A stretch of DNA of 64,000 nt from Gekko japonicus. Lineage: Eukaryota. A program made the translations under genes and the position numbers. Below, in pieces: positions 446-62,640 of the stretch. Each line of letters starts with the position of its first letter. The stretch's first letter is position 1. The stretch is from the NCBI RefSeq assembly GCF_001447785.1, contig NW_015167593.1, forward strand, positions 186,001 through 250,000, written 5' to 3'. The notes below the pieces were generated by a model. It saw only the letters and a list, made by a program, of their open reading frames with translations. It did not search any database and was not told where the DNA came from.

Positions 446-897
446 TAACACAATAAATAAATAAATAAATCACAACAGTCACTAGTGGATGGTTTATATA
501 AACATGAAGAATCTAACCAATATTGGAAAACACATAAAACAACCCTCAATGTATGTAAAAAATACCAGTGATACAAAATCAGGCGTTCATGAAAGATACA
601 GGAAATAATAGTGGTACAAAAACAGGCATTCATGAAAGATGCGTCTATAATATGCTCGTTTTTCATCATACAAGCATCTTATATTATAGACACATCTTTC
701 ATGAACGCCTGTTTTTGTACCACTATTATTTTCTGTATCTTTCATGAACGCCTGATTTTGTATCACTGGTATTTTTTACATACATTGGCTCAGTAGTCAG
801 AGGGTTGTTTTATGCGTTTTCCAATATTGGTTAGATTCTTCACATTGATATAAACCATCCACTAGTGATAGTTGTGATTCATTCATTTATTTTGTTA
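446..897. repeat. Long near-perfect inverted repeat (~205-215 bp arms, ~28 nt loop) in EDC4 intron 11
   Basis: 446-652 is the reverse complement of 681-897 with scattered mismatches and a ~12-nt indel. Confidence 0.9.
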
Positions 898-7444: not shown

Positions 7445-7614
7445 CAGTGTTCCCTCTAAGCTGAGTTAGTGTGAGCTAGCTCACAGTTTCTTAGCCTCCA
7501 GAGCAAACTCATTTATGCAGTAACCCAATCGCTCGCTCATGACTTTGATGCCAGCAGCTCACAAAGTAGAACTTTTGCTCACAACAAGACTCCACAGCTT
7601 AGAAGGGAGCATTG
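7445..7614. mobile_element. hAT-type MITE, same family, opposite orientation to 1898-2104
   Basis: TIRs; 8-bp TSD CCACTGCA. Confidence 0.85.
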
Positions 7615-7775
7615 CCACTGCATAACTGCAAAGTCTGAATGAGGGCACAGCAACCTGCTTCTTACGCATCGCGGCATCACCTGGCCTAATCAAGTGAACC
7701 CATGAAACCACCCACGGGGGCACCGACACCACAACCACCCCAATCCACAAAGCTTTGCCCGAGAGATAAAGATAC

Positions 7776-7965
7776 TGGATCTTTCCGTTCTCCATGGCCA
7801 GGTGCCACACAAAGAGGTTGCCAGCTTCATCCAGGCAGGCTAGCTGGTTGGAGTTGAGGTGGGCAAAGGCCAGGTCCGCCACGCCACCCGTGAAGCCTTT
7901 CAGCAGGGTCCGCTCGGCCGTGCTGATACTCAGGACCCGCACCATGGCAGAGCCGTTGCTGGCAA
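7776..7965 (-). CDS. EDC4: EDC4 coding exon 5 (190 nt)
   Basis: VASNGSAMVRVLSISTAERTLLKGFTGGVADLAFAHLNSNQLACLDEAGNLFVWHLAMENGKI; CCGCAG| and |GTATCTTT. Confidence 0.95.
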
Positions 7966-8159
7966 CTGCGGAAGAGGGGCAAGGAAGAGGTCAGCCAACA
8001 GGGCCAGGTTAGCACCCTTCGTACACCGGGGGGGGGGGGGGGGGGAAAAGGGGGCAATCCAGGGGCTCAAACAGCTCAACACAGAATAATGAAGAGGAAA
8101 GATAAAGAAGCCCATCCAAGAAGGTGCAATTTGGTATTGCAGAAAGACAGGCACCTCAC

Positions 8160-8259
8160 CTCTAATGGCATACGCCAGGTAGGCATTTGACACGGCGATC
8201 AGGTTGCCATAGTAGTATTTCTGCTCCCAATCATACCTTGCTACTGGCTGGATTTTTAC
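8160..8259 (-). CDS. EDC4: EDC4 coding exon 4 (100 nt)
   Basis: VKIQPVARYDWEQKYYYGNLIAVSNAYLAYAIR; CCCAG| and |GTGAG. Confidence 0.95.
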
Positions 8260-8334
8260 CTGGGGGAGGTTGACACAAAGAGCAATTAGAATGTGGATCA
8301 GCAACATGTGCCAGCAACAGTGGCACCCCAAGGC

Positions 8335-8541
8335 GGGAAGCGCCATCAAATTGCAGCTGACGTACGGCAACCCCAATGGGTTTACAAGGCAAGAGGCAGA
8401 GGTGCTTTGCCATTGCCTGCCTTTGCATAGCAACCCTGAAGTTTGTTGGTGGCCTCCTGTCCAAATACTAACCAGGGCCAACCCTGCTTAACTTCTCAGA
8501 TCTGATGAGATCGGGCTAGCCTGGGCCATCCAAGTCAGGGC
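8335..8541 (-). mobile_element. 5S rRNA-derived SINE (related copies ~32674-32870, ~55945-56605, ~44172-44320)
   Basis: Reverse complement CCCGATCTCATCAGATCTGAGAAGTTAAGCAGGGTTGGCCCTGGTTAGTATTTGGA resembles the 5S internal promoter region, followed by a non-5S body. Confidence 0.7.
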
Positions 8542-15949: not shown

Positions 15950-16800
15950 AAGCGAGCTTGCAGAGCGGCGATTCGAACTCGAGTCTCCGCGGTCCCAAGC
16001 CCAACTCTCTACCCGCACCGCACGCTTCTTCGGAATACGGAATTGAGTGAAGTATAGCCCCAAGAGATCACAACGGTCCTATGCAACAAGACGCTCCGTT
16101 CGCCTCCTCGGAGACAAGCCCCACTGCGTAAGAGCGGCAGGAGGCTCCCTCCCAAGAAACGAGCGCGCAGGGCTGCAGCGGAACAAGCCAACCCTCCGAG
16201 GATTTATTCGCACTGCAATGGGGGCTTACTCCAGAGTAAGCAGGGCTGCAATTCGAGCTCCAGCCGCAGCAGCAGCCCTCGGGAGTCGCCCTGACTGCCG
16301 ACGACACCCCCACGCGCCAGCCGACCGGGCCTGCCCCCACGGCCGCGTGCCAGGAGGAAAGCGGGGTGCCTCGGCTCAGGACGCTCACTCGCTCGCTCCC
16401 CGGTCCCAGAGCAGGAGGCCGGAGGCAAGCAATGTTGCCGAGCTCCCCGCAGGGTCCCAGTCCGTCCGCACGTCTCTCACCGCCCGGCCGGTCCAGCTTG
16501 AGGATGTCTCGCAGGTGCTGAGTCGCGTCCTCGATGTCGATACTAGCGGAGGCCATTGGAGCGCCACCCAGGACGCCTCCGCCGTCACCAGCGCAGCCGC
16601 CACCCGGACAGGCCAAGCCCTAACTAGCCGCCCCTACTTCCGTTTCCGGTCCGGTTCCCTCCGTCCTCCTCTGTGGAAACCGCTGCTGCGTCGCTGCCGT
16701 TCCGCTTTCCTCGGAAGAAAAATGCGAGGCTCGGGAAATAAAACGGGGGAAGAGGCTAAAAGAAAAGAGGCGAGCGTTCTTCGTCTTTTAAAGGGGCTGC
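15950..16800 (-). promoter_or_regulatory. EDC4 CpG-island promoter with ETS-like motifs (CTTCCG / TTCCGG at ~16636-16655)
   Basis: CpG-rich stretch spanning exon 1; no TATA seen; boundaries approximate. Confidence 0.75.
16481..16556 (-). CDS. EDC4: EDC4 coding exon 1 (76 nt; enhancer of mRNA decapping 4, P-body scaffold)
   Basis: MASASIDIEDATQHLRDILKLDRPG, the characteristic EDC4 N-terminus; donor G|GTGAG; all 12 exons join in frame. Confidence 0.96.
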
Positions 16801-17023
16801 TGGTCTTTGGGAACTGGAAATTAGGCTCGGGAAGCGTGGGAGGTGGGCTGTTTGCAAAAAAAAAAAAAAAAAAAAGTGTCTGTCCAGCTGCGAGGTTTTG
16901 TCAAGAACTGATCCTTCTGGCTTTTGTTTTGAAGCAGAGTGTCAACAAAACAGAAAGGGGATGGGTTGGACGTGGCTGCTGTGCGGCAAAAAAACAAACC
17001 AGCCCGGCATGCAGGGGAACACA

Positions 17024-18820
17024 GGCTATGGCAGGCTATGGCAAATAAAATGCAAGTCTCTGGTCAGGCAGGCAAAAAGGGAATATGAGGAGCATATAGC
17101 AAAAAACGTAAAAACCAACAATAAAACTTTCTTCAAATACATTAGAAGCAGGAAACCAGCCAGGGAGGCAGTGGGGCCCTTGGATGACCAAGGGGTAAAA
17201 GGAGTACTGAAGGATGATAGGGAAATGGCTGAGAAGCTAAATGCATTTTTTGCCTCCGTCTTTACTATGGAAGATGAGAGGTGCTTGCCCACTCCAGAGC
17301 CGCTGAGTTCGGGAGGGGTGTTGAAAGACCTGAGTCAGATTGAGGTGACGAGAGAGGAGGTCCTAAAACTGATAGACAACTTAAAAACTGATAAATCACC
17401 AGGCCCAGATGGCATACATCCAAGAGTTCTGAAAGAACTCAATTGTGAACTTGTGGATCTCCTGACAAAAATATGTAATCTCTCCTTAAAATCAGCCTCC
17501 ATTCCTGAGGACTGGAAGGTAGCTAATGTCACTCCCATCTTTAAAAAGGGTTCCAGAGGAGATCCGGGAAATTACAGGCCAGTCAGTCTGACGTCGATAC
17601 CGGGTAAATTGGTGGAAACCATTATTAAGGAAAGAATTAGTAGGCACATAGATGAACAAAACCTATTGAGGCAGACTCAACATGGGTTCTGTAAGGGAAG
17701 ATCTTGTCTCACTAACCTGTTAATGTTCTTTGAGGGGGTGAACAAACATGTGGACAAGGGGGATCCAATAGATNNNNNNNNNNNNNNNNNNNNNNNNNNN
17801 NNNNNNNNNNNNNNNNNNNNNNNNNNNNNNNNNNNNNNNNNNNNNNNNNNNNNNNNNNNNNNNNNNNNNNNNNNNNNNNNNNNNNNNNNNNNNNNNNNNN
17901 NNNNNNNNNNNNNNNNNNNNNNNNNNNNNNNNNNNNNNNNNNNNNNNNNNNNNNNNNNNNNNNNNNNNNNNNNNNNNNNNNNNNNNNNNNNNNNNNNNNN
18001 NNNNNNNNNNNNNNNNNNNNNNNNNNNNNAGACAGATCAAGAGAGAGATCTTGAGTTGTAGTAGATAACTCACTGAAAATGTCGAGACAGTGTGTGACTG
18101 CAATAAAGAAGGCCAATGCTATGCTGGAGATTATTAGGAAGGGTATTGAAAACAGATCAGCCAATATCATAATGCCCCTATATAAATCAATGGTGCGACC
18201 TCATTTGGAATACCGTGTGCAGTTCTGGTCACCACACCTTAAAAAGGATATTATAGCTTTGGAAAAAGTGCAGAAAAGGGCAACTCGAATGATAAAAGGG
18301 TTGGAACACTTTCCCTATGAGGAAAGGTTAAAGTGCTTAGGGCTCTTTAGCTTGGAGAAACGACGACTGAGGGGTGACATGATTGAGGTTTATAAGATTA
18401 TGCATGGGAAAGCACAGGTAGAGAAAGAGGTACTTTTCTCCCTTTCTCACAATACAAGAACTCTGAGCGGTCGGGTTAGAATGGATAAAAGGAAGTACTT
18501 CTTCACCCAAAGAGTGATTAACACATGGAATTCACTGCCACAGGAAGTGGTGGCAGCTACAAGCATGGACGGCTTCAAAGGGGAATTAGATAAGCATATG
18601 GAGCAGAGGTCCATCAGTGGCTATTAGCCACAAGGTATAGATAGGGACCCTGGGGCAAGTGATGCTCTTGGTGCTTGGGGGGGTCAACAGTGGGAGGGCT
18701 TCTAATGTCCTGGCCCCACTGGTGGACCTCCTGATGGCACTGGTATTTCTGGCCACTGTGTGATAGTGTTGGACTGGATGGGCCTTTGGCCCGATCCAAC
18801 ATTGGCGTCTCTTATGTTCT
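17024..18820 (+). mobile_element. CR1 LINE, 5'-truncated (ORF2 RT region and 3' UTR)
   Basis: KSPGPDGIHPRVLKEL, GNYRPVSLTS, QHGFCKGRSCLTNL, LEKVQKRATRMIKGLE; possible TSD GAACACA; N gap 17774-18028. Confidence 0.92.
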
Positions 18821-21318: not shown

Positions 21319-21871
21319 TGTCCCATATGTGGTGGGAATGCCCAGAGGTCAGAGTTTTCTGGACAATGATATTACAAATTATAAAAAAGACGTGTAAAGT
21401 ACCATTACCCATTGACTTTAATTTAATGCTAATGGGTATAGTAGGTAACCCAGCAATAAGCAAAGAGAACCAAGCTTTGTTTAAAGCCATGATACTAGCA
21501 AGTAAAGCAGTAATAGCTCTAGGCTGGAAGAACAAAAATAAATGGACAGTAGAAATCTGGCATAATTATTTGTTTGATCTCATACAGTCCGACATAATCG
21601 AAAAGCTGGAACGTAAGGCCACATGGGAAGATAAGACTACGGGGATCACGATGAAGTGGAAGACTTACCTGGAATGGATACCTACAGAAGGAAGAAAAGA
21701 CATTCAGAGCAAGATTCGGACTTTGTGCCCGTGACTGGGAATATAGGACTAAAACACCGGGATAGCATAGGGGGGAGGGGGGAGGGATAAAAACTACTAT
21801 GTAATGCATGGTCAAAAGATAGTATGTAAAATTTGTGAAAAATATTAAAAATAAATATATATATTTTTTAA
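21319..21871 (+). mobile_element. L1-clade LINE 3' fragment (ORF2 C-terminus)
   Basis: HMWWECPEVRVFW..ASKAVIALGWK motif; AATAAA and A-rich tail; 14-bp TSD AAATCCACTTCAGC. Confidence 0.85.
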
Positions 21872-34732: not shown

Positions 34733-35392
34733 TATGGAATACTGTGTGCAATGCTGATCACCACACCTCAGAAAGGATATTATAGCATTGGAAAAAGTGC
34801 AGAAAAGGGCGACTAGAATGATAAAAGGGTTGGAACACCTTCCCTATGAAGAAAGGTTAAAGCGCTTGGGGCTCTTTAGCTTGGAGAAACGACAACTGAG
34901 GGGAGACATGATAGAGGTTTACAAGGTTATGCATGGGACAGAACAGGTAGAGAAAGAGGTACTTTCCCCCCTTTCTCACAATACAAGAACTCGTGGGCAC
35001 TCAATGAAATTGCTGAGGGGTCGGGTTAGAACGGATAAAAGGAAGTATTTCTTCACCCAAAGAGTAATTAACATATGGAATTCTCTGCCACAGGAGGTGG
35101 CGGCGGCTACAAGCATGGACGGCTTCAAGAGGGAATTGGATAAACATATGGAGCAGAGGTCCATCAGTGACTATTAGCCACAAGGTATAGATAGAAACTC
35201 TCGGTCTGGAGCAAGTGATGCACTGTATTCTTGGTGCCTGGGGGTGGGGGTAACAGTGGGAGGGCTTCTAGTGTCCTAGCCCCACTGCTGGACCTCCTGA
35301 TAGCACCTGGTATTTTTAGCCACTGTGTGACAGAGTGTTGGACTGGATGAGCCACTGGCCTGATCCAACATTGCCTTCTCGTATGTTCTTAT
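34733..35392 (+). mobile_element. CR1 LINE 3' fragment (same family as 17024-18820; another fragment ~11417-11557)
   Basis: LEKVQKRATRMIKGLEHLPYEERLKRLGLFSLEKR..; shared 3' UTR. Confidence 0.9.
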
Positions 35393-47047: not shown

Positions 47048-47720
47048 TTGTTGTTGTTGTTGTTGTTCAGTCGCACAGTCGAGTCCGACTCTTCGCGACC
47101 CCATGGATCATCTCCCGCCAGGCCCTCCTGTCTTCCCCCGTCCTCTGAAGTTGGCTCAACTTCATGTTCGTTGCATCTATGACACTGTCTAACCATCTCA
47201 TCCTTTGGCGTCCCCGTCTTCTTTGACCTTCAATCTTTCCCAGCATCAGGGTCTTCTCCAGTGAGGGCTCCCTTCTCATTTGGTGGCCAAAGTATTGGAG
47301 CTTCAGTTTCATTATCTGGCCTTCCAGGGAACAGTCAGGGTTGATTTCTTTTAGGACTGACTGATTTGATCTTCTTGCAGTCCAAGGGACTCTCAAAAGG
47401 TATCTCCAGCACCATAGTTCAAAAGAATATTCTTCGGCGCTCAGCCTTCCTTATAGTCCAACTCTCGCAGCCATACATGACTACTGGGAATACCATTGCT
47501 TTGACCATGCGGACTTTTGTTGGCAGGGTGATGTCTCTACTTTTTATCATGCTGTTTAGGTTCGCCATCGCTTTCCTCCCAAGGAGCAGGCGTCTTTTAA
47601 TTTCATGGCTGCAGTCACAGTCTGCGGTGATCTGGGATCCCAGGAACGTGAAGTCTGTCACTACTTCCACGACTTCCCCTTCTATTTGCAAAGGAGTGAT
47701 GGGGGCGGATGCCATGATCT
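47048..47720 (-). mobile_element. BovB (RTE clade) LINE 3' fragment
   Basis: EVVTDFTFLGSQITADCDCSHEIKRRLLLGRKAM..YGCESWT..GKIEGQRRRGRQRMRWLD; (CAA)n tail. Confidence 0.9.
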
Positions 47721-49224
47721 AGCCAAAGCAAAAAATGGAGATTCACTGCATGGAAAAAGTAACAAAAGACCAGAAACCCGTGAATATAATAACGAAGAAT
47801 TTATAAAACTAACTTGTAAATAATTATCAAACGTTCCAATCTGAATAAAGAATATTATACAAAATGTCTCTGGTGTCAGTCTAATACTGAAAACACCTCC
47901 AACTCCCAACAAATTTCCTCTCTGAGACAGTCCTTCCCAGTAAAGTAACAAAGTCCGATGTTGAAGGAGACAAGGCAATCCTGTTAACGGGACGGGTAAT
48001 ATCCCGATTCCACGGTTCTTCAGGAAGAGGTACCATGCAACCGAACATAATCCGTATTGTATTTAATCTTGCTGCTTCCTAGTTTGGTCTGATAAGAATA
48101 CTGTAATGTAATAGTAGAACACAATGTAATTTGGAATGCATTTCTCTGGTCTGAGGACAGAGGAGATGCATGGCACAGCTGACTGCATCGCCTCAAAGAA
48201 GAGGATGCTGCACATGCTTAATACAATCTTTTTGGGATGTGTTCATGCTTTAATGCAAGAACCAATTGAGAGGCAACAACATAAGAAACGCTGATGCAGA
48301 GACATTAAAATGCTGCTGTCCATATGCATTTGAGATTAAAGATTCTTTATTACTATAATTGGCTAAGAACAAGGCTCTGGAATTCTGATTAATTACCATG
48401 ACTGTCAGTTTATCACTGTAATGGTGAATGAGGCCGTTAACGGAGTCAGAAAAACTGGAGAGACTTGCATCATGGGCTCATCTTGGGCACAAACAAACCA
48501 CAGAATTACTTCACAATTTGTAAAACTGAAATGACCAGTTTACACACAGCTTCTTTAGTGGATGAAAACAAAGGCCACAATCTAAAGTACAGACTTTAAT
48601 GCTAAGTTTTCTGTGAAACTTTAAAAGACAGTTGCATCTAGACAGTATTATTATGAATTATTAAGTGATGGGAAATCACAACCAGGCCTTGAGATTTTTC
48701 TAGTGTAATTGATACAAGGACTGTTTCTCCCTTTCTCAAGTGGCTCAGACATTTAGTTAAAAAAATATACCAACAAGTCAAGAAGTTGCAAAAGGTTTGT
48801 CTAGTTCTAATTCAGGGGTGTCAAACATAAGACCCAAGGGCCAGAACCAGCACTTCCAGGGCTCCTATGCAGCCTGTGAACAACTACTAGTGCAAGTGAG
48901 GGAACAGGAGATTGCTCAGGGGGAGTGGGCGGAGCCACTCCAATTGTGGCTTCAGCATGGCGGAGCAATCTCGTCTGCAGGAGTCAAGCAGTATGGGAGT
49001 GTCTGCCCAGTGCTGCACTGCTGGCTTTCTAGTCTGACCATATGGGTTTTCCTTTGCATCCCCCTCCCAGCCCATGGGGCCTGGTGATAAGGATACAACA
49101 ACTTTGAGCTTACCAGCTGCTGCCCTTTATACAGTTTCTTTTTTAAAAAATAATCTATTTATTAATTTTCAGACACATAAGCATAACCATATCGTTGAAT
49201 ACATCGCAAGAATAATCAATAAAT

Positions 49225-50996
49225 AGAACTTACGGCCACGGCGGCGCGTATGGCGGCCAGCTCTCGGGACTCTCCCGGAGTTGGATCGCCCACACGTGGA
49301 GTGGGGGGGATCCGCACAAGCGGAGACCCTAAGGAGCCTTGGGAAAAGGCTCCGAACCAGGGGGCGCTTAGGGGAGAAGCCTCTTACCGGCCAGAAGGTC
49401 GGAAATTGAGGCTCTCCCTCTGCCCTGACGGCCCCGCTGCGCTGTGCCCCGAATGGGGACCTAGCAATGCCACTGGAACATCGGAGTGATGAAGCGATGA
49501 AGTGAAAGTACAAAGAAAGAGACGAGCGGCTAACTGTGAGTTGGAGATCAAATTACAAGCTACCGGCTAAAGCACACTCCGTCCCCCGGGAAAGCGAGAG
49601 GGAGGAGGGAGGATTCCCCCCCACACTCGAGAAAGAGACTTTTTGAAAGCAGAAAGGGGGGGCGAAGTGAAGTTTGGAAAAAGCAAATTACCTTTTGGGA
49701 GAGAGCTGAAAACGGAGAACAGGGAGTGATCCCTATGCTGCGCAGCACAAACTTAAAAAAAGTAAACAAAAACTGAAAATGGCGGGGCCGAAAAAGTTCT
49801 TGGAGAGGCAGACAAAGAAGACGGGAGGAACTTCCGGTCTTAGCCCTTCCCCTGCAGGGGCTGCTGTCAATCAGCAAGAAAGTGAGATGCTGCGCCCTCT
49901 GCTGGATGAATTGTAGAAGATCAATCAAAAGTTGGATAGCATGGAAAGTGCCTATAGTATTCAACAGAAGCAGATGACAGAGACAGCCAAGAAGGTGGAT
50001 GAGATCGCAAAGAAATGTCTGGTATCAACGGAAGAAATACAGAAAGTCAAGAAGAAGGTCAGTAAAGTGGAAAAACACAAAGAGAAGCAGGATAATAAAT
50101 TATTATTGCTTCAAATGGAAAAATCAAATTTGACTCTTCGATTTCAAGGGATGAAAGAATTTGAAAAGGAAGACCTCAGAGACATCCTGGCGAATGCGTT
50201 GGCACCACTGACTGGCAGTGAAGCGGGAAAAATAAAAGATGAGATGGATTTGGCATATAGAGCCTACTCCAACTTTACAAGGAAGAATAATCTGCCAGCA
50301 GAAGTGGTTGTGAAATTTACCAAGCAGCGTCTCAGAGATCAAATTTTAAAAGTAACATCATCAACACCTTTGAAAATCGGAGACCAGACTATTAGAATTC
50401 TGAAAGATGTTACATTTGAAATCAGAATGAAGAGAAAGGAATATAAAGGGTTGACCATGTTCTTGCAAAGTCACCAAATTAATTATAAATGGTTGATACC
50501 CGAAGGACTCGTCTTTAAGTTTAAAGACAGAAGAGAAAAGATAGACTCCATCTTCAAGGCTCAAGACTTTTTGAAGAGGCACGCCAGCTCAGAGGTCGAG
50601 GCAGAACTCGCTAAGTGGATGGTAGGAACTAGCAAAGAAGACAGCAACTCGGAGGAAGAGGTGAAAGATGAGGAAGACAAAGGAGCGGCTAGAGGGCCAA
50701 AATACAACAAGAGACAAAAAAGGGAAGCACCTCAACGTTTGAGAACTAGTTCGGAAAGCGCAATAAAAGATAATACTAATCCCAAAGGGATTAACTAACC
50801 GGTTTTGAAAGATATAGAAGAAAAAAGTACTGTCCAGCTGCAGAAGAAGATTTTGACTTTGACTTTACTAATAAAGGATTAATATACTAATTTTTAACAT
50901 CACTCAACACTTTTCTTTACCCCTCTATATACCCTCCCTAACTTTCTGAAATGTAAAAGCAATAAAATTCTCTCCTTTTTAGAAGAGGGGGAAAAA
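49225..50996 (+). mobile_element. ORF1-only L1-type retroelement 'B' (HAL1-like)
   Basis: 17-bp TSD AAGAAT(A/C)ATCAATAAAT; GC-rich 5' UTR; ORF1 49779-50798; AATAAA at 50961 and A tail; no ORF2. Confidence 0.82.
49779..50798 (+). pseudogene. L1-type ORF1p (coiled coil, RRM, CTD), 339 codons with one premature TAG at 49914-49916
   Basis: ATG 49779 is in frame with ORF 49932-50798; motifs LRFQGMKE, DLAYR, LPAEVVVKF, IRILKDV..RMKRK correspond to L1 ORF1 motifs LRIIGIPE, ERAHR, PRPIIVKF, I..DLS..ARR. Confidence 0.8.
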
Positions 50997-51215
50997 AAGA
51001 ATCATCAATAAATTGACAGACATAATTACACTTTCATTACATTTCATATTCTTTCCCCCTATTTCTATCATTCAAAACCAAATTCATTTTACTGATGTCA
51101 ATATTAATATTAGATCACCATATCAATTCATATAGCAAAGACATTTATACTATTAATTAAACTTCATAGTAAAGCTATTTTCTTAATCACTTGAGCGTCT
51201 TTTGTTCTATTTCCT

Positions 51216-52905
51216 TTTTTTTTTTTAATCCCCTGAAGACAGGGTAGCTTTATTAAATTTTGTTACACCTACGTGACTACAGAAAGGGAAAAAAAAGGGA
51301 AAAGGGGAAAAAAGGAAGGGGGGGATAGGGGAAAAAAATAACAAACTAAAATAACAAACCCCGGGATACAGACAGTACAAAGAAAAAGGAACCCACACTA
51401 TAACTAAAAACCCAAGAAAGGAAGGTCATTACCAGTTAGTATACAGTTAGTCATAAAAATTAAAGCTTTCGTTTGAGTCAATGAATTAGGGAGATTAGTG
51501 AGTCCATTTTAGTAAATGTCTAATTTCTTCTCAGTATGCACAAAGACTTCATCCAGTTTGTTCATAAATCTTTTAGAATATAAGAGCTACTTGGCAACTC
51601 TTAGCCGCAAATCATATGCCTCTCTGGCCGTGCCTCCTTCTGCTCCTATTAGGTCTCCGTCCGTCTCGTCCAGGCTGGCTGCCTGGCCTCCACCGTCTTG
51701 CTGCTCTTCCTCTTTCGATCCGAAAAACTGCTTCAACCATTCTTCCGCTTTGAACACCGAGTTGATTTTTTCTCTTTTGTCCTTATACTTAAACTGCACC
51801 CCCTCTGAAAAAAGCCAGGCGTATTGAATCTGGTTGATCTGAAGTGTTGAGATAAGCTCTTTATACGCTTTTCTTTTCTGTCGGACCTCAAATGGAACAT
51901 CCTTTAGGACCCTGATAGTTGTTGATCCCAATTGCAGGGGTCTGGCTGCTGTCGCTTTAAGAATATCATCTCTTGTCTGTCGTCGGAGAAATTTGACAAC
52001 AATCTCGCCCGGCAAGTTGTTTTGCTTAATATATTTAGAGTAAGATCGATATGTCACTTCGATCTCTGCATGCGCTTCAGCCGGTGTACTGCCGAGCGAT
52101 AAAACGATTAACTCAGCTGCCACATCTTTCAAAATTTCTCCTGCTATTTCAGCCACCCCTTGGAATCTGAGAGTTTTGTTTGCTTTTTCCATTTGTAGGT
52201 TCAGTAGCTTCCTCTCGTGCAGATCCTGCTTTTGTTCCATCAGACCAACTTTTTTCTTCAGCTTTTTAGCATCGTGTGCTGTCTCTTTAAGCTTTNNNNN
52301 NNNNNNNNNNNNNNNNNNNNNNNNNNNNNNNNNNNNNNNNNNNNNNNNNNNNNNNNNNNNNNNNNNNNNNNNNNNNNNNNNNNNNNNNNNNNNNNNNNNN
52401 NNNNNNNNNNNNNNNNNNNNNNNNNNNNNNNNNNNNNNNNNNNNNNNNNNNNNNNNNNNNNNNNNNNNNNNNNNNNNNNNNNNNNNNNNNNNNNNNNNNN
52501 NNNNNNNNNNNNNNNNNNNNNNNNNNNNNNNNNNNNNNNNNNNNNNNNNNNNNNNNNNNNNNNNNNNNNNNNNNNNNNNNNNNNNNNNNNNNNNNNNNNN
52601 NNNNNNNNNNNNNNNNNNNNNNNNNNNNNNNNNNNNNNNNNNNNNNNNNNNNNNNNNNNNNNNNNNNNNNNNNNNNNNNNNNNNNNNNNNNNGGACCGAT
52701 TGGGGCAAAAAGGAGCGCCTCAATTCTCCGGCTTCAAGCCATCGAAGAGGCCGCCCCCCAAGCGCCCCCAGCTTGGAGCCTCCACTCTGAGGCTCACCTG
52801 GGGGTGCCACTTGAGGCGGCACCCCTCCAACACCCCTGGAGCGCAGAATGCCTCCCCTGTTCAGGAGAGAGCCTCCGCCATCGCTGAAGCCACAGACCGG
52901 AAGTC
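51216..52905 (-). mobile_element. ORF1-only L1-type retroelement 'C' (HAL1-like); N gap 52296-52692 hides the ORF start
   Basis: 17-bp TSD CTTTTGTTCTATTTCCT at 51199-51215 and 52906-52922; 5' GACTTCCGG..ATGGCGG; open ORF1 from the gap to stop at 51587; AATAAA and poly(A). Confidence 0.82.
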
Positions 52906-53028: not shown

Positions 53029-53426
53029 CAGGGCTTTTTTTTGTAGAAAAAGCCCAGCAGGAACTTATTAGCATAATAGGCCATACCCAACTGCAGAAAC
53101 TCATTAGCCTATTTGGCCACACCCCTGATAGCACAGCTCATTAGCATATTAGGCCACGCCCCCATGTTACCAGAAGTGTGGTTATCCAGCCACACCCATC
53201 TTTTGCTTCTTATTCTGTTTACCTTGTTTGTTGTCAAAACCCAGGGCTTTTTTTTGTAGTAGGAACTCCTTTGCATGTTAGGCCACACACCCCTAATGTA
53301 GCCAATCCGAATGAGTGTCTGCTGTTGGGTGTGGTCTGTTATGCTAATGAGCTCCTGCTGGGCATGGCCAACTCAGGAGCCAGCCGGAACTCCGTTCCTG
53401 TGCGTTCCTGCCCAAAAATAGCCCTG
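53029..53426. mobile_element. hAT-type MITE (TIR CAGGGCTWTTTTT) nested in element A
   Basis: 8-bp TSD TGTTTAAC. Confidence 0.85.
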
Positions 53427-53662: not shown

Positions 53663-53756
53663 ATCGCCTATTGATCTTCACTGTATACTTCAAAAAGAAA
53701 AAAGAAAAAATTAACAAAGACCAACACCTAAATCTCATAATTCCTCACTCTCTCCT

Positions 53757-54092
53757 CCACCATCCGTCTCAGTCTCTCATGGCTATAAACCACATTAACA
53801 AAATAAACCTTATTACAAAAGGACAAAACAGACCCACAAACAGAAAATATATAATTACAAAACATCACTTCTTCCTTCATTACAGCACAATCTCTTAGTA
53901 TGTTTTCAAAAGCCATATAAATTTCTCCACCATCCATCTCAGTCTCTCATGGCTATAAAGCACATTAATGAAATAAACCTTATTACAAAAGAACAAAACA
54001 GACCCACAAACAGAAAATATATAATTACAAAACATCACTTCTTCCTTCATTACAGCACAATCTCTTAGTATGTTTTCAAAAGCCATATAAAT
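53757..54092. repeat. 170-bp tandem duplication abutting an N gap
   Basis: Two copies with about 5 mismatches. Confidence 0.8.
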
Positions 54093-54835
54093 NNNNNNNN
54101 NNNNNNNNNNNNNNNNNNNNNNNNNNNNNNNNNNNNNNNNNNNNNNNNNATTTTTGTATTCATGAATTTCCATCTTTGAAACTCGTCTTCCATAATTCAA
54201 ATGATTAGTCCTCAATCTTCTATTCGGTTTAGTCTGTTTAACCCATACTTTTCTTCCTCTTTTTCTCTTTTGTCTCTTTGCCTTTTTTTTCTTCTGAAGC
54301 AACTGTGGTGACTTTTTTTACATCTTCTTTTTCTAATACAAGGTCTGCTGTATATTTTGTCCAATCTATATCTATCTCCTGATTCTCTTCTTTCTCGGGT
54401 TCCGGTTGTTTATCCGCCATTTCTCTCGTCCCTTCCGAAAAGCCGTCCCTCTTCTCACCAGCAACCTGAGTCATTTGGGTTTGTTCTTCATTATTGCTTA
54501 TATCCTGACTCACATTTTGTGAGGTTTTAAGAAGATTATTACAGACAGCTCTGAAGGCTTGTGATATTTCCCTTACCAGTAAGTTTTTAAACTGTTCTGC
54601 TGTGAGAGTTACAATTTCAGTGTCCGGATCCCATTCCTCGCTGCTCTTTCCCAACTCCATTTTAACGTTTCACGTTTCAACATGCAGGTTAACTTCTAAG
54701 TCTTTTAATCAAAGCCTGAATTGTCCTTCAACTTCAGACACACACTAGCTCAAACAGGACAGAATAGATTTTCCTTACCCCTTCCTTTTTTGCAACATGG
54801 CCGTTTTCTATAATATTGAAGTTGTTTGTTGGGGG

Positions 54836-55148: not shown

Positions 55149-56000
55149 GTTGGGGGTATTATAATCCAGTGCTCTTCCAGGTAATCTCTTGATCTTTCAA
55201 ATCCTTCTTTTTACGATGTAATAGTTCCAAGAAAAAACAAACAGCAGTTTAAAAAAACGGATGGTCAGGGCTGCGTGGAAAACATGGAGACCATGTTCCA
55301 CCCCTCTCTTCGTCCCTGCTTCAAGGCACTATTGGACATCCCCCCGCGATGCCAAAGCGGGGAGGGGCCAACAAAAAGCCCCCTGCCGTCAGCTCTCCCT
55401 CCAGGAGATCTGGCGAGGCTCCCCGAGACCGGGAAGCACTCTAAAAGATGAAAAAGGATCGGGCGTCTCGGGAGCCACCTGAGAAACTGCCCGTTGCCCT
55501 TGCCGTACCGCCTGGCTTCCCCCTTTATACAGTTTCTATCTCTGGTAACAAGCAGTGTGTTTTATGGCACACATGGCCCAGCCCGACAATGGACATTAAT
55601 GTCAGATCCGGCCCTCATTACAAATGAGCTTGACACCCCTGTTCTAATTCATCCGGCTTACTCAGTATTCCCACAGTGGCTTTAATTTTACTTGTATCAC
55701 TCCTTCACGTGACACACATTATCTACCCTCCCCAAATAAATCAAATACAAACTGAAGCAATGCAGTAGTTTTATGCAGTAATGTTTAGGTTATTGGAAGA
55801 GTTAGAAACCCACTCTTATGAAAGTCATTAACATGTGCCTCCGCACAGGCTCGAATAACAGCATTCTGTAGAACAGAGAACAACCACCTGCACAGATTTC
55901 AGATGCTGTAGCCACTCTACTACCTTATCTTGTGTGTGTGCATGCACATGCATAAAGTGCCATGAAGTCACAGCCAATTTATGGCAACCCCATAGGGTTT

Positions 56001-56431
56001 CCCAGTAGTCATGTATGGCTGCGAGAGTTGGACTATAAGGAAGGCCGAGCGCCGAAGAATAGATTCTTTTGCACTATGGTGCTGGAGAAGACTCTTGAGA
56101 GTCCCTTGGACTGCAAGGAGATCAAATCAGTCAATCCTAAAAGAAATCAACCCTGACTGTTCCCTGGAAGGCCAGATAATGAAACTGAAGCTCAAATACT
56201 TTGGCCACCAAATGAGAAGGGAGCACTCCCTGGAGAAGACCCTGATGCTGGGAAAGATTGAAGGTCAAAGAAGACTGGGACGGCAAAGGATGAGATGGTT
56301 AGACAGTGTCATACATGCAACGAACATGAAATTGAGCAAACTTCAAAGGACGGCGGAAGACAGGAGGGCCTGGCGGGAGCTGGTCCATGGGGTCGCGAAG
56401 AGTCGGACCCGACTGTGCAACTGAACAACAA
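56001..56431 (+). mobile_element. BovB (RTE clade) LINE 3' fragment inserted into a 5S-derived SINE
   Basis: MYGCESWTIRKAERRRID..RWLDSV; (CAA)n tail; 10-bp TSD CATAGGGTTT. Confidence 0.9.
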
Positions 56432-56741
56432 CATAGGGTTTTCAAGGCAAGAAATGAAAAGAGGTGATTCGCCATTGCCTGGCTTTGCACAGCTACCCTG
56501 AACTTTGTTGGTGGTCTCCCAGCCAAGTACTAACCTGGCCTTGACCTTGCTTAACTTCTGAGATCTGATGACAGTGGGCTAGCCGGGGCCCTCCAGGTCA
56601 GGGCACATAATCTTAGCATATTGCATTTCCCTACTCCAGTCTGTGCGGCACTTGCTGCTTAACTTCTGTTCTTAACTAGTGTCCTGAATATTTATAGCCT
56701 CGCTTTTCTTAGACTGCATGATTGTTGTCAGTGAAGAAATG

Positions 56742-61298: not shown

Positions 61299-62027
61299 TC
61301 AGAGGCCGTGGCGCTTGCGAGCTCCCCCGATGCCGCTGGCGGCGTGCAGCAGGCGGTCCTTCTCGCGGATCTCCTCACGGAGCTGGGCCTCGGCCAGGCG
61401 CAGGCGCCGAATACTGCCCTTCATCTCCTTCATCTTCACCTCCAGCAGGGCGATGATGTCCCGCTGCTCGTTGAGCTTGCGCAGCAGCTCCTCCGAGGTG
61501 GTGCCCGAAGACAGCGAGTACGAGTGGTCTGGCGGGCCCCCGCCGTCCAGCAGGGGCCCGTTGCCGGCCAGCAGGGCCAACCGGACCGGGGTGCCGACTG
61601 CGGTGGCGGCACCAGCAGGACCCCCCAGCTCCACCTGCACGGTCAGGTCGATGGGCTTGACGTCCTCGGGTCCCCCTCCTCCTCCGGCTCGCGGCCCTTG
61701 CCCGCCCTGCTCGACGGCTCCCTCTTGCTGCAAGGTGAGCAGCACCGCGGGGGGCTGCTGGGCGGCGGCGGCGGCGGGGGGCTGCTGGAAGATGGTGGGC
61801 ACGCGCACCAGGTAGGACTTGCGCCCGCCGGGGAAGTGTTCGGAGCAGACGCGGTGGCCGGTGGTGGGCTGGAAAGTGCTGAAGCAGCCGCTCACGCCGG
61901 CCCGCGACACGTTCTTCAGCCACAGGCGGCGCAGCTCCGCGTCCTTCGGGAAAGTGTAGAAATGGAGCGCCTTGTCCCGGTGCGAGTTGTTGTAGCAGCC
62001 CGGCACGCAGCACGTGAACCCGGGCAT
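61299..62027 (-). CDS. THAP11: THAP domain-containing protein 11 (Ronin), single exon, 242 aa
   Basis: [30 protein letters not shown]2CH THAP domain ending VPTIF; HCF1-binding motif DHSY (61518-61529); C-terminal coiled coil [23 protein letters not shown]; syntenic with NUTF2 and EDC4. Confidence 0.97.
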
Positions 62028-62029
62028 GG

Positions 62030-62640
62030 CGTGTGTGTGTGTCGTCCCCCCACCCCGCCCGCTACTCCGCCTTCTCCTCCCCCGGCGGTCCCGTGGCGGC
62101 CGGGACTACAGATCCCACAAGGCCTCCCGAGGCTGAGCGCGACAAGGGGGCAGCCCCGCTATCGCCGTCGCCGCTACTCCTGCCGCCGCCACCGCTGCGC
62201 CCCGCAGCCCCACAGGAAGCGGAACTACCCGCCCCACAAAGCATCGCGGCGCCGCGCACCGGAACTACGTTTCCCACAAGATCTAGCGCGGGGCGGGAGC
62301 GGGCCCCGCTTTCTCCACTGGATGCATAAGTTTAAAGAAAGTGGGAGGACAAAAGTTAAGACTCTCATCGAGCCAGGCAGCCCGCCTGAGGCTCTTTCTT
62401 TCCTCGCGGCCCTACACACGATCCTCCCGGTGTTTAAGGTTTCCCATAATCCATCTCTTTGTAGTCCTTTATTTTGCCTCTCCAACCGTTAAGGACTACT
62501 CGTACCATAATGCAGTGGGAAGCACGGAACTACGCTTCCCACAATGCCGTTTGCTCGGTAGTTCTACCCTCTTCGATGTTTCACCCGAAAGGGGGGCGAG
62601 ATGTTTCCGTCTATGGTTGCTGTGGCAACCCTACTCCAGT
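62030..62640. promoter_or_regulatory. THAP11 promoter with five co-oriented ACTAC-N3-CCCA-type (ZNF143/THAP11) motifs and a palindromic X-box-like site
   Basis: Motifs at 62105, 62224, 62264, 62495, 62529; GGTTGCTGTGGCAACC at 62615-62630. Confidence 0.75.

What the first reader, a model, noticed from the sequence alone, without database searches (positions are those of the whole stretch)
49225..52905. Two divergent ORF1-only ('half-L1') retroelements: a candidate non-autonomous, protein-coding retrotransposon system in squamates
Seen: B (49225-50996, +) and C (51216-52905, -) are each ~1.7 kb with their own 17-bp TSD. Each has a GC-rich 5' end starting (A/G)ACTT(A/C)CGG..ATGGCGG (ETS/YY1-like internal promoter), one L1-type ORF1, a 200-360-nt 3' UTR, AATAAA and an A tail, leaving no room for ORF2. 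B's ORF is 339 codons with a single premature stop; C's visible ORF is open. The proteins align without gaps but at only roughly 45% identity by eye, so they are separate lineages with the same architecture. Established: ORF1-only HAL1 elements are described mainly from mammals and need L1 ORF2 in trans; an L1 ORF2 fragment with the same TSD style lies at 21319-21871. Inference: long-lived parasites of L1 that keep their own RNA chaperone under selection. I cannot tell whether these families are already in Repbase/Dfam.
Basis: partly seen in the sequence, partly recalled or inferred. Interest (0 to 1): 0.75.

Follow-up and report, generated by a model that had tools for sequence, protein, structure and literature searches.

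The report
Lizard half-L1 jumping genes lacking ORF2
Two short, highly repeated jumping genes carry only the RNA-binding gene of LINE-1 and likely borrow the copying enzyme from full LINE-1s, a parasitic design known from mammals that I could not find reported for lizards, the likely host here.

Summary
Observation confirmed with small corrections. B and C are separate insertions with 17-bp target-site duplications (B 16/17, C 17/17). Each has a homologous L1-type 5' end, one L1 ORF1 (model matches human ORF1p, Foldseek E=3e-11), a 198/371-nt L1-type 3' UTR, AATAAA and an A tail. C holds a 397-N gap, so its length is an estimate; the gap lies upstream and cannot hide a normally placed ORF2. 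Both are repeat families end to end in two DNA runs. A shared run-on sequence was listed at C's gap edges but at neither poly(A) end, though only 24 of 2,529 loose-end rows were shown. The ORF1s are 48% identical with saturated silent sites and group together apart from endonuclease-linked relatives. Best reading: HAL1-type non-autonomous families mobilised by L1 ORF2 (about 0.72). One long-lived ORF1-only lineage is plausible but unproven (about 0.4). No whole genome was held, so the genome-wide copy test is still open. Seven literature searches showed no reptile HAL1; Repbase/Dfam were not checkable. The scan has no earlier look-alike sequence, but noted ORF1-only elements in two other genomes.

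The parts
49208..49224 (+). B left target-site duplication (A-rich, 17 bp)
   Evidence: 16 of 17 match to 50997-51013
49225..49778 (+). B 5' UTR, 554 nt; first 256 nt 65% GC with 20 CpG; starts with the L1-type ACTT(A/C)CGG..ATGGCG motif; likely internal promoter
   Evidence: homologous in register to C's 5' end over about 210 nt, 0 of 500 shuffles
49779..50798 (+). B ORF1, 339 codons: coiled coil, RRM, C-terminal domain, acidic tail
   Evidence: start matches relative P0001
49914..49916 (+). Premature stop at codon 46, private to this copy
   Evidence: about 97% of contig depth in both DNA runs reads another base at 49914
50799..50996 (+). B 3' UTR, 198 nt, 32% GC, C/T tract, AATAAA 50961-50966, weak hairpin 50971-50992, short A tail
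50997..51013 (+). B right target-site duplication
51199..51215 (-). C 3'-side target-site duplication (17 bp, perfect)
51216..51586 (-). C 3' UTR, 371 nt, 34% GC, long C/T tract, AATAAA 51249-51254, 5-bp hairpin 51231-51244, 11-A tail
51587..52294 (-). C ORF1, visible 235 open codons plus stop
   Evidence: 58% identical to P0002 over its whole length
52296..52692 (.). 397-N assembly gap hiding C's ORF1 start and part of its 5' UTR
   Evidence: other copies run on into the gap from both edges (table 7)
52693..52905 (-). C 5' end, 213 nt, 65% GC, starts with the L1-type motif
   Evidence: resembles the anole clade 1 5' consensus in PMC5381506
52906..52922 (-). C 5'-side target-site duplication
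21319..21871 (+). 5'-truncated ordinary L1 (ORF2 C-terminus, G-rich 3' UTR, 14-bp TSD); shows L1 machinery existed in this genome, not shown to be the partner

Best explanation
B and C are decayed copies of two repeated families that carry an L1-type 5' end, ORF1 and an L1-type 3' end but no ORF2, and they likely spread as HAL1-type parasites using ORF2 made by full L1s. Inferred cycle: the GC-rich 5' end drives a transcript of about 1.7 kb that is polyadenylated at the terminal AATAAA. The element's own ORF1p coats that RNA. ORF2p from an autonomous L1 nicks an A-rich target and reverse-transcribes from the A tail, leaving a 17-bp duplication. Being short, most copies would insert full length with their promoter. 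Shown: anatomy, ORF1 fold, repeat status, purifying selection between B and C. Inferred: the 3' end of most copies, trans-mobilisation, promoter activity, origin by loss of ORF2 from an anole-clade-1-like L1.
For: TSDs beyond chance. ORF1 fold: profile of 88 relatives hits human ORF1p at E=1.7e-15; model pLDDT 87.6 matches 2yko at E=3.4e-11. Summed contig depth in every non-gap bin of B and C exceeds the spacer between them: 10-238x in X1, 2.5-83x in X2. C's 5' end is about as deep as its ORF (82-128k vs 53-94k in X1), as expected of short full-length inserts. Shared run-on sequence is listed at both edges of C's gap in both DNA runs (7, 18, 9, 17 contigs) but at neither poly(A) end. Anole clade 1 L1s share the 5' motif, have inter-ORF spacers of -46 to 110 nt, and 3' UTRs of 194-570 nt, 22-40% GC, with C/T tracts and AATAAA (PMC5381506). 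The 198- and 371-nt tails (32%, 34% GC) therefore fit a 3' UTR, not a spacer. pS 0.77 vs pN 0.33 over 192 gapless codons. No longer, fused form of these ORF1s was found (weak evidence).
Against: No whole genome was held, so copies were never counted or read to their ends. Only 24 of 2,529 loose-end rows were shown, flank repeats dominated, and the ranking rule is unknown. Contig depth is not a copy number. B's 5' bins are shallower than its ORF core (14-51k vs 85-148k in X1). The 5' motif also starts opossum and several zebrafish L1s, and anole clade 2, frog and fish L1s do have 257-1,032-nt spacers. B has five AATAAA signals, so premature polyadenylation is possible. No ORF2 remnant and no significant shared 3' tail with the window's L1 fragment were found. 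Two RNA runs show no element-specific transcription.
Confidence: 0.72

Rival explanations
1. B and C are prematurely polyadenylated retrocopies of ordinary autonomous L1s whose inter-ORF spacer holds a poly(A) signal; they are by-products, not self-propagating families.
For: Lizard L1 ORFs carry many poly(A) signals and some vertebrate L1s have long spacers (PMC5381506). Three ORF1 relatives run on into endonuclease-like sequence, two of them in the same 42-row clade as B and C. Depth over a spacer would be as high as over ORF1, so depth alone cannot exclude this.
Against: No shared run-on listed at either poly(A) end while gap edges gave one. Anole clade 1 spacers are at most 110 nt, and clade 2 spacers are about 46% GC and G-rich, unlike these C/T-rich tails. 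Two such by-products of sister families with the same layout would be needed.
Confidence: 0.17
2. Same HAL1 mechanism, but two independent losses of ORF2 from two related autonomous L1 families; the purifying selection between B and C then belongs to the autonomous parents. This competes only with the 'one long-lived lineage' part, not with the HAL1 label.
For: HAL1 arose several times in mammals (PMC5753468), and rat HAL1 is 98% identical to active L1 at its 5' part (PMC2241872). The protein library is clustered at 50% and has no genomic context, so autonomous parents could hide behind P0001 and P0002. B and C 3' UTRs differ in length.
Against: B, C and P0002 form one branch (SH-aLRT 99, stem 0.66) with no endonuclease-linked row inside. 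The 3' UTRs align weakly in register just after the stop codons (4 and 8 of 500 shuffles). Both 5' UTRs are shorter than any anole clade 1 5' UTR (554 nt for B vs 792-1,465).
Confidence: 0.4
3. Assembly artefact, or processed copies of a domesticated L1TD1-like host gene.
For: The assembly is gapped, and C contains a gap. L1TD1 is an ORF1-derived host gene in mammals (PMC4161310).
Against: B is gap-free from TSD to TSD. Both have own TSDs and L1-type 5' ends. All parts are repeated in two independent DNA runs.
Confidence: 0.04

Closest known systems
HAL1 ('half-L1') of mammals (Smit 1999; Bao and Jurka 2010, seen only as cited in PMC5753468, PMC5786205, PMC2241872, PMC13756887)
   Same: L1-derived, encodes ORF1p only, keeps the 5' promoter region, L1-type 3' end and TSDs, repeated.
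   Different: Host is likely a lizard; the papers seen place HAL1 in mammals. The ORF1 is only 17-19% identical to human ORF1p in structure-based alignment. Two sister families at 48% identity. Elements are about 1.7 kb.
Anolis carolinensis L1 clade 1 (L1_AC1-AC15; PMC5381506)
   Same: 5'-terminal motif, ORF1 length near 1 kb, AT-rich 3' UTR with C/T tracts and AATAAA.
   Different: No ORF2; 5' UTR shorter (554 nt in B); longer gap between the two parts of the 5' motif. ORF1 could not be aligned to the anole consensuses because the supplement's FASTA was cut at 400 nt.
HeT-A (Jockey clade) and Ag-Sponge (CR1 clade), ORF1-present non-autonomous LINEs (PMC5786205)
   Same: One ORF1-type protein, dependence on a partner's reverse transcriptase.
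   Different: Other LINE clades, insect hosts (recalled); HeT-A is telomere-specific, whereas B and C are interspersed.
L1TD1 (PMC4161310)
   Same: Derived from L1 ORF1.
   Different: L1TD1 is a domesticated mammalian host gene; B and C are repeated, TSD-flanked insertions.

Membership tests
HAL1 | Encodes an L1-type ORF1p (coiled coil, RRM, CTD) | tested here: met
   PF02994 in 19 of 88 aligned relatives, though not in B or C alone
HAL1 | No ORF2 between ORF1 and the poly(A) tail in the element | tested here: met
   198 and 371 nt from stop to tail, stops in all frames; no endonuclease match by tblastn
HAL1 | L1-type insertion marks (A-rich TSD, AATAAA, A tail) | tested here: met
HAL1 | Repeated family over its whole length | tested here: met
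   depth and 921 variant sites; no copy number can be read from it
HAL1 | Most copies share the ORF2-less structure and 3' end (propagates as such) | tested here: inconclusive
   no run-on listed at poly(A) ends, run-on listed at gap edges; only 24 of 2,529 rows visible; no genome
HAL1 | ORF1 under purifying selection within the ORF2-less lineage | tested here: inconclusive
   pN/pS 0.42 (bootstrap 0.35-0.52, silent sites saturated) between B and C; cannot be assigned to the ORF2-less phase
HAL1 | Derived from an identified autonomous L1 by loss of ORF2 | tested here: inconclusive
   relatives with endonuclease exist but are distant; no ORF2 remnant
HAL1 | Mobilised in trans by L1 ORF2p | not testable with these tools
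   needs a cell assay
Autonomous L1 (anole clade 1 type) | ORF2 with endonuclease and reverse transcriptase directly after ORF1 | tested here: not met
Autonomous L1 (anole clade 1 type) | 5'-terminal motif as in PMC5381506 | tested here: met
   close in C, two changes in B; not exclusive to lizards
Named Repbase/Dfam family | Sequence match to a deposited consensus | not testable with these tools
   no repeat library on hand

The most novel reading that the evidence does not exclude
One ancient ORF1-only lineage lost ORF2 once in a lizard ancestor and then survived long enough to split into families whose ORF1 proteins are under half identical, with silent sites saturated. It would be a self-standing clade of protein-coding L1 parasites outside mammals, with ORF1 selected purely for its own RNA, perhaps outnumbering its helper's full-length copies.
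Probability: 0.4. Interest if true: 0.62.

Novelty: new member of a known kind. Interest (0 to 1): 0.42.

Why it matters
It would extend the HAL1 way of life from mammals to reptiles and show that dropping ORF2 while keeping ORF1 is a general outcome of L1 evolution. If B and C descend from one ORF2-less ancestor, they give a natural experiment on what ORF1p does for its own RNA when ORF2p comes from elsewhere, which is an open question in L1 biology. Practically, such copies can be mis-annotated as host 'L1TD1-like' genes or as truncated L1s.

Tried and rejected
Whole-genome copy search: no genome held. Pfam on B and C alone: no ORF1 family. Related loci with context: none in metagenome or viral contigs by protein or by a 3'-end pattern; these collections hardly cover vertebrates. 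Source names for the relatives could not be looked up. Run search: no RNA holder listed. RNA reads laid: in X21 both strands are about equal, and RNA/DNA depth over B and C (mostly 0.1-2 x 1e-3) is no higher than over unrelated flank repeats (1.2-1.9 x 1e-3), so no element-specific transcription was seen; tissue unknown, so this is neutral. X22 had too few reads. A 3' stem-loop as recognition signal: z -1.0 (B) and -2.0 (C), not significant over 100 nt; kept as a lead only. ORF2 remnants after the stop codons: best 68 of 2,000 shuffles over six frames, rejected; an endonuclease-start resemblance at B's end found no PDB support. Shared tail with the window's L1 fragment: B 5 of 500, C 179 of 500 shuffles, not accepted. 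The depth peak in C's last 30 nt (282k vs 105k twenty bases away) could be short truncated copies, a shared tail or poly(A) mis-mapping; not used. B and C as one composite element: rejected, each has its own TSD. No empty-site joint was among the 15 of 152 joints shown.

Full report
Observation. B (49225-50996, +) and C (51216-52905, -) lie tail to tail, 185 bp apart between their TSDs. B's TSD matches at 16 of 17 bases and C's at 17 of 17; 0 of 400 random position pairs at that spacing reached 14 of 17. The 5' motif occurs twice in the 64-kb window, exactly at the two 5' ends, against 0 of 100 shuffles. B has a 554-nt 5' UTR, a 339-codon ORF with one stop at codon 46, and a 198-nt 3' UTR. C has 213 visible 5' bases, a 397-N gap, 235 open codons and a 371-nt 3' UTR. 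The gap sits at the ORF start, so it makes C's length uncertain but cannot hide an ORF2 in its normal place.

Protein. Pfam does not recognise B or C alone, and single-sequence PDB search gives human ORF1p only at E=0.009. A profile search of 1.84 billion representatives found 489 relatives. A profile of 88 sequences (B, C and 86 longer ones of the 150 listed) hits human ORF1p at E=1.7e-15, and 19 of the 88 match PF02994. The model of B residues 47-339 (pLDDT 87.6) shows a long helix, an RRM and a C-terminal domain and matches the human ORF1p trimer chains at E=3.4e-11, TM 0.77 over the target. The Atlas agrees (0.94). The ORF is an L1 ORF1.

B and C are relatives in every part. ORF1: 92 of 192 residues identical, no gaps; codon positions 1, 2 and 3 are 57, 74 and 43% identical; pS 0.77 (saturated) and pN 0.33. 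5' ends: aligned in register over about 210 nt, 0 of 500 shuffles. 3' UTRs: weak in-register similarity after the stop, 4 and 8 of 500 shuffles. In a quick tree of 116 of 152 rows (36 dropped for not covering the core, P0001 among them), B, C and P0002 form one branch with SH-aLRT 99, inside a 42-row clade that also holds two rows running on into endonuclease-like sequence. Of 152 proteins, 4 had tails over 130 residues and 3 carried endonuclease motifs (motifs recalled; P0137 confirmed by Pfam). None of the three is among the 22 closest to B or to C. The rows were chosen by a profile built from B, C and P0001, the library is clustered at 50%, and there is no genomic context, so a close autonomous parent may be hidden.

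Are they families, and where do copies end? No genome was held. I laid 2 DNA contig sets and 2 raw RNA runs, 4 of 24 listed. Every non-gap bin of B and C is deeper than the spacer between them (10-238x in X1, 2.5-83x in X2); the tool warns this is no copy number. Most laid contigs are 90-95% alike, and B's stop is private to this copy, so both window copies are fossils of moderate age. Shared run-on letters were listed at both edges of C's gap in both DNA runs; by eye, those at the ORF side read on in frame like P0002. No such row was listed at either poly(A) end. This is what the HAL1 reading predicts, with the gap edges as a positive control. However, only 24 of 2,529 rows were shown, flank repeats took many of them, and the ranking rule is not stated. 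C's 5' end is as deep as its ORF; B's is two- to six-fold shallower. RNA depth tracks DNA depth as in unrelated flank repeats, so no dedicated transcript was seen in these runs.

Comparison with lizard L1. Boissinot and Sookdeo 2016 (PMC5381506; abstract, passages, methods, supplement parts 1, 5 and 6 with FASTA cut at 400 nt) give anole clade 1 the same 5' motif, spacers of -46 to 110 nt, and 3' UTRs of 194-570 nt at 22-40% GC with C/T tracts. Clade 2 has 270-384-nt G-rich spacers and another 5' motif. B and C thus read as clade-1-type head plus ORF1 plus L1-type 3' UTR. The motif also begins opossum and some zebrafish L1s, so it does not fix the host. The lizard host is an inference from this resemblance and from the CR1- and RTE-like repeats in the window (labels recalled).

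Mechanism. Likely HAL1-type: own promoter and poly(A) signal, own ORF1p in cis, ORF2p borrowed in trans, target-primed insertion at A-rich sites. The steps borrowed from established L1 biology are not tested here. Rivals: premature polyadenylation of full L1s (0.17); two separate ORF2 losses (0.4, compatible with the HAL1 label); artefact or host gene (0.04).

What is known. HAL1 is described as an L1 derivative encoding only ORF1p that arose several times in mammals (passages of PMC5753468, PMC13756887, PMC2241872, PMC4161310, PMC8535693). HeT-A and Ag-Sponge are the counterparts in other LINE clades (passage of PMC5786205). Bao and Jurka 2010 was not held, so I have read none of it. Seven searches listed no reptile HAL1, and the main texts of PMC5381506, PMC5203782 and PMC6050309 do not contain 'HAL1'. 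Subscription papers, Repbase Reports, Dfam and unread supplements may still hold these families. The scan holds no look-alike sequence but has unchecked notes on ORF1-only elements in two other genomes.

Verdict. Real, probably HAL1-type families in a new host group: new member of a known kind, interest 0.42. The bolder reading, one ancient ORF2-less lineage that diversified under selection, has probability about 0.4.

Noticed in passing
window 50971-50992 (+) and 51231-51244 (-): Both elements have a small hairpin between AATAAA and the A tail; it could be a 3' recognition or processing signal, but folding z-scores are only -1.0 and -2.0.
   Followed up: partly
window 51014-51198: B and C inserted independently only 185 bp apart, tail to tail, in an AT-rich stretch; chance or a local hot spot is unexplained.
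   Followed up: no
window 51216-51257: Contig depth rises about 2.7-fold in C's last 40 nt: short truncated copies, a tail shared with another family, or poly(A) mis-mapping.
   Followed up: partly
window 54238-54669 (-): A 143-codon acidic/basic open frame next to an N gap and a 170-bp tandem duplication (53755-54092, probably an assembly overlap); no Pfam or Atlas hit, no match to the ORF1 profile.
   Followed up: partly
window 16760-18820 and 34735-35389: Reverse-transcriptase frame (RVT_1, E=4e-7) with a second 3' fragment 85% identical; CR1-like by recall.
   Followed up: no
window 47058-47490 and 55999-56433: Two 94% identical fragments of an RTE/BovB-like LINE (label recalled).
   Followed up: no
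window 455-892: A 440-bp self-inverted repeat (86%), MITE-like.
   Followed up: no
window 53036-53200: An extremely abundant repeat directly beside C, about a hundredfold deeper than B or C in the DNA runs.
   Followed up: no
window 61299-62105 (-) and 7559-8487 (-): Host genes: an intronless THAP11-like frame and EDC4-like exons (names recalled, not tested).
   Followed up: no
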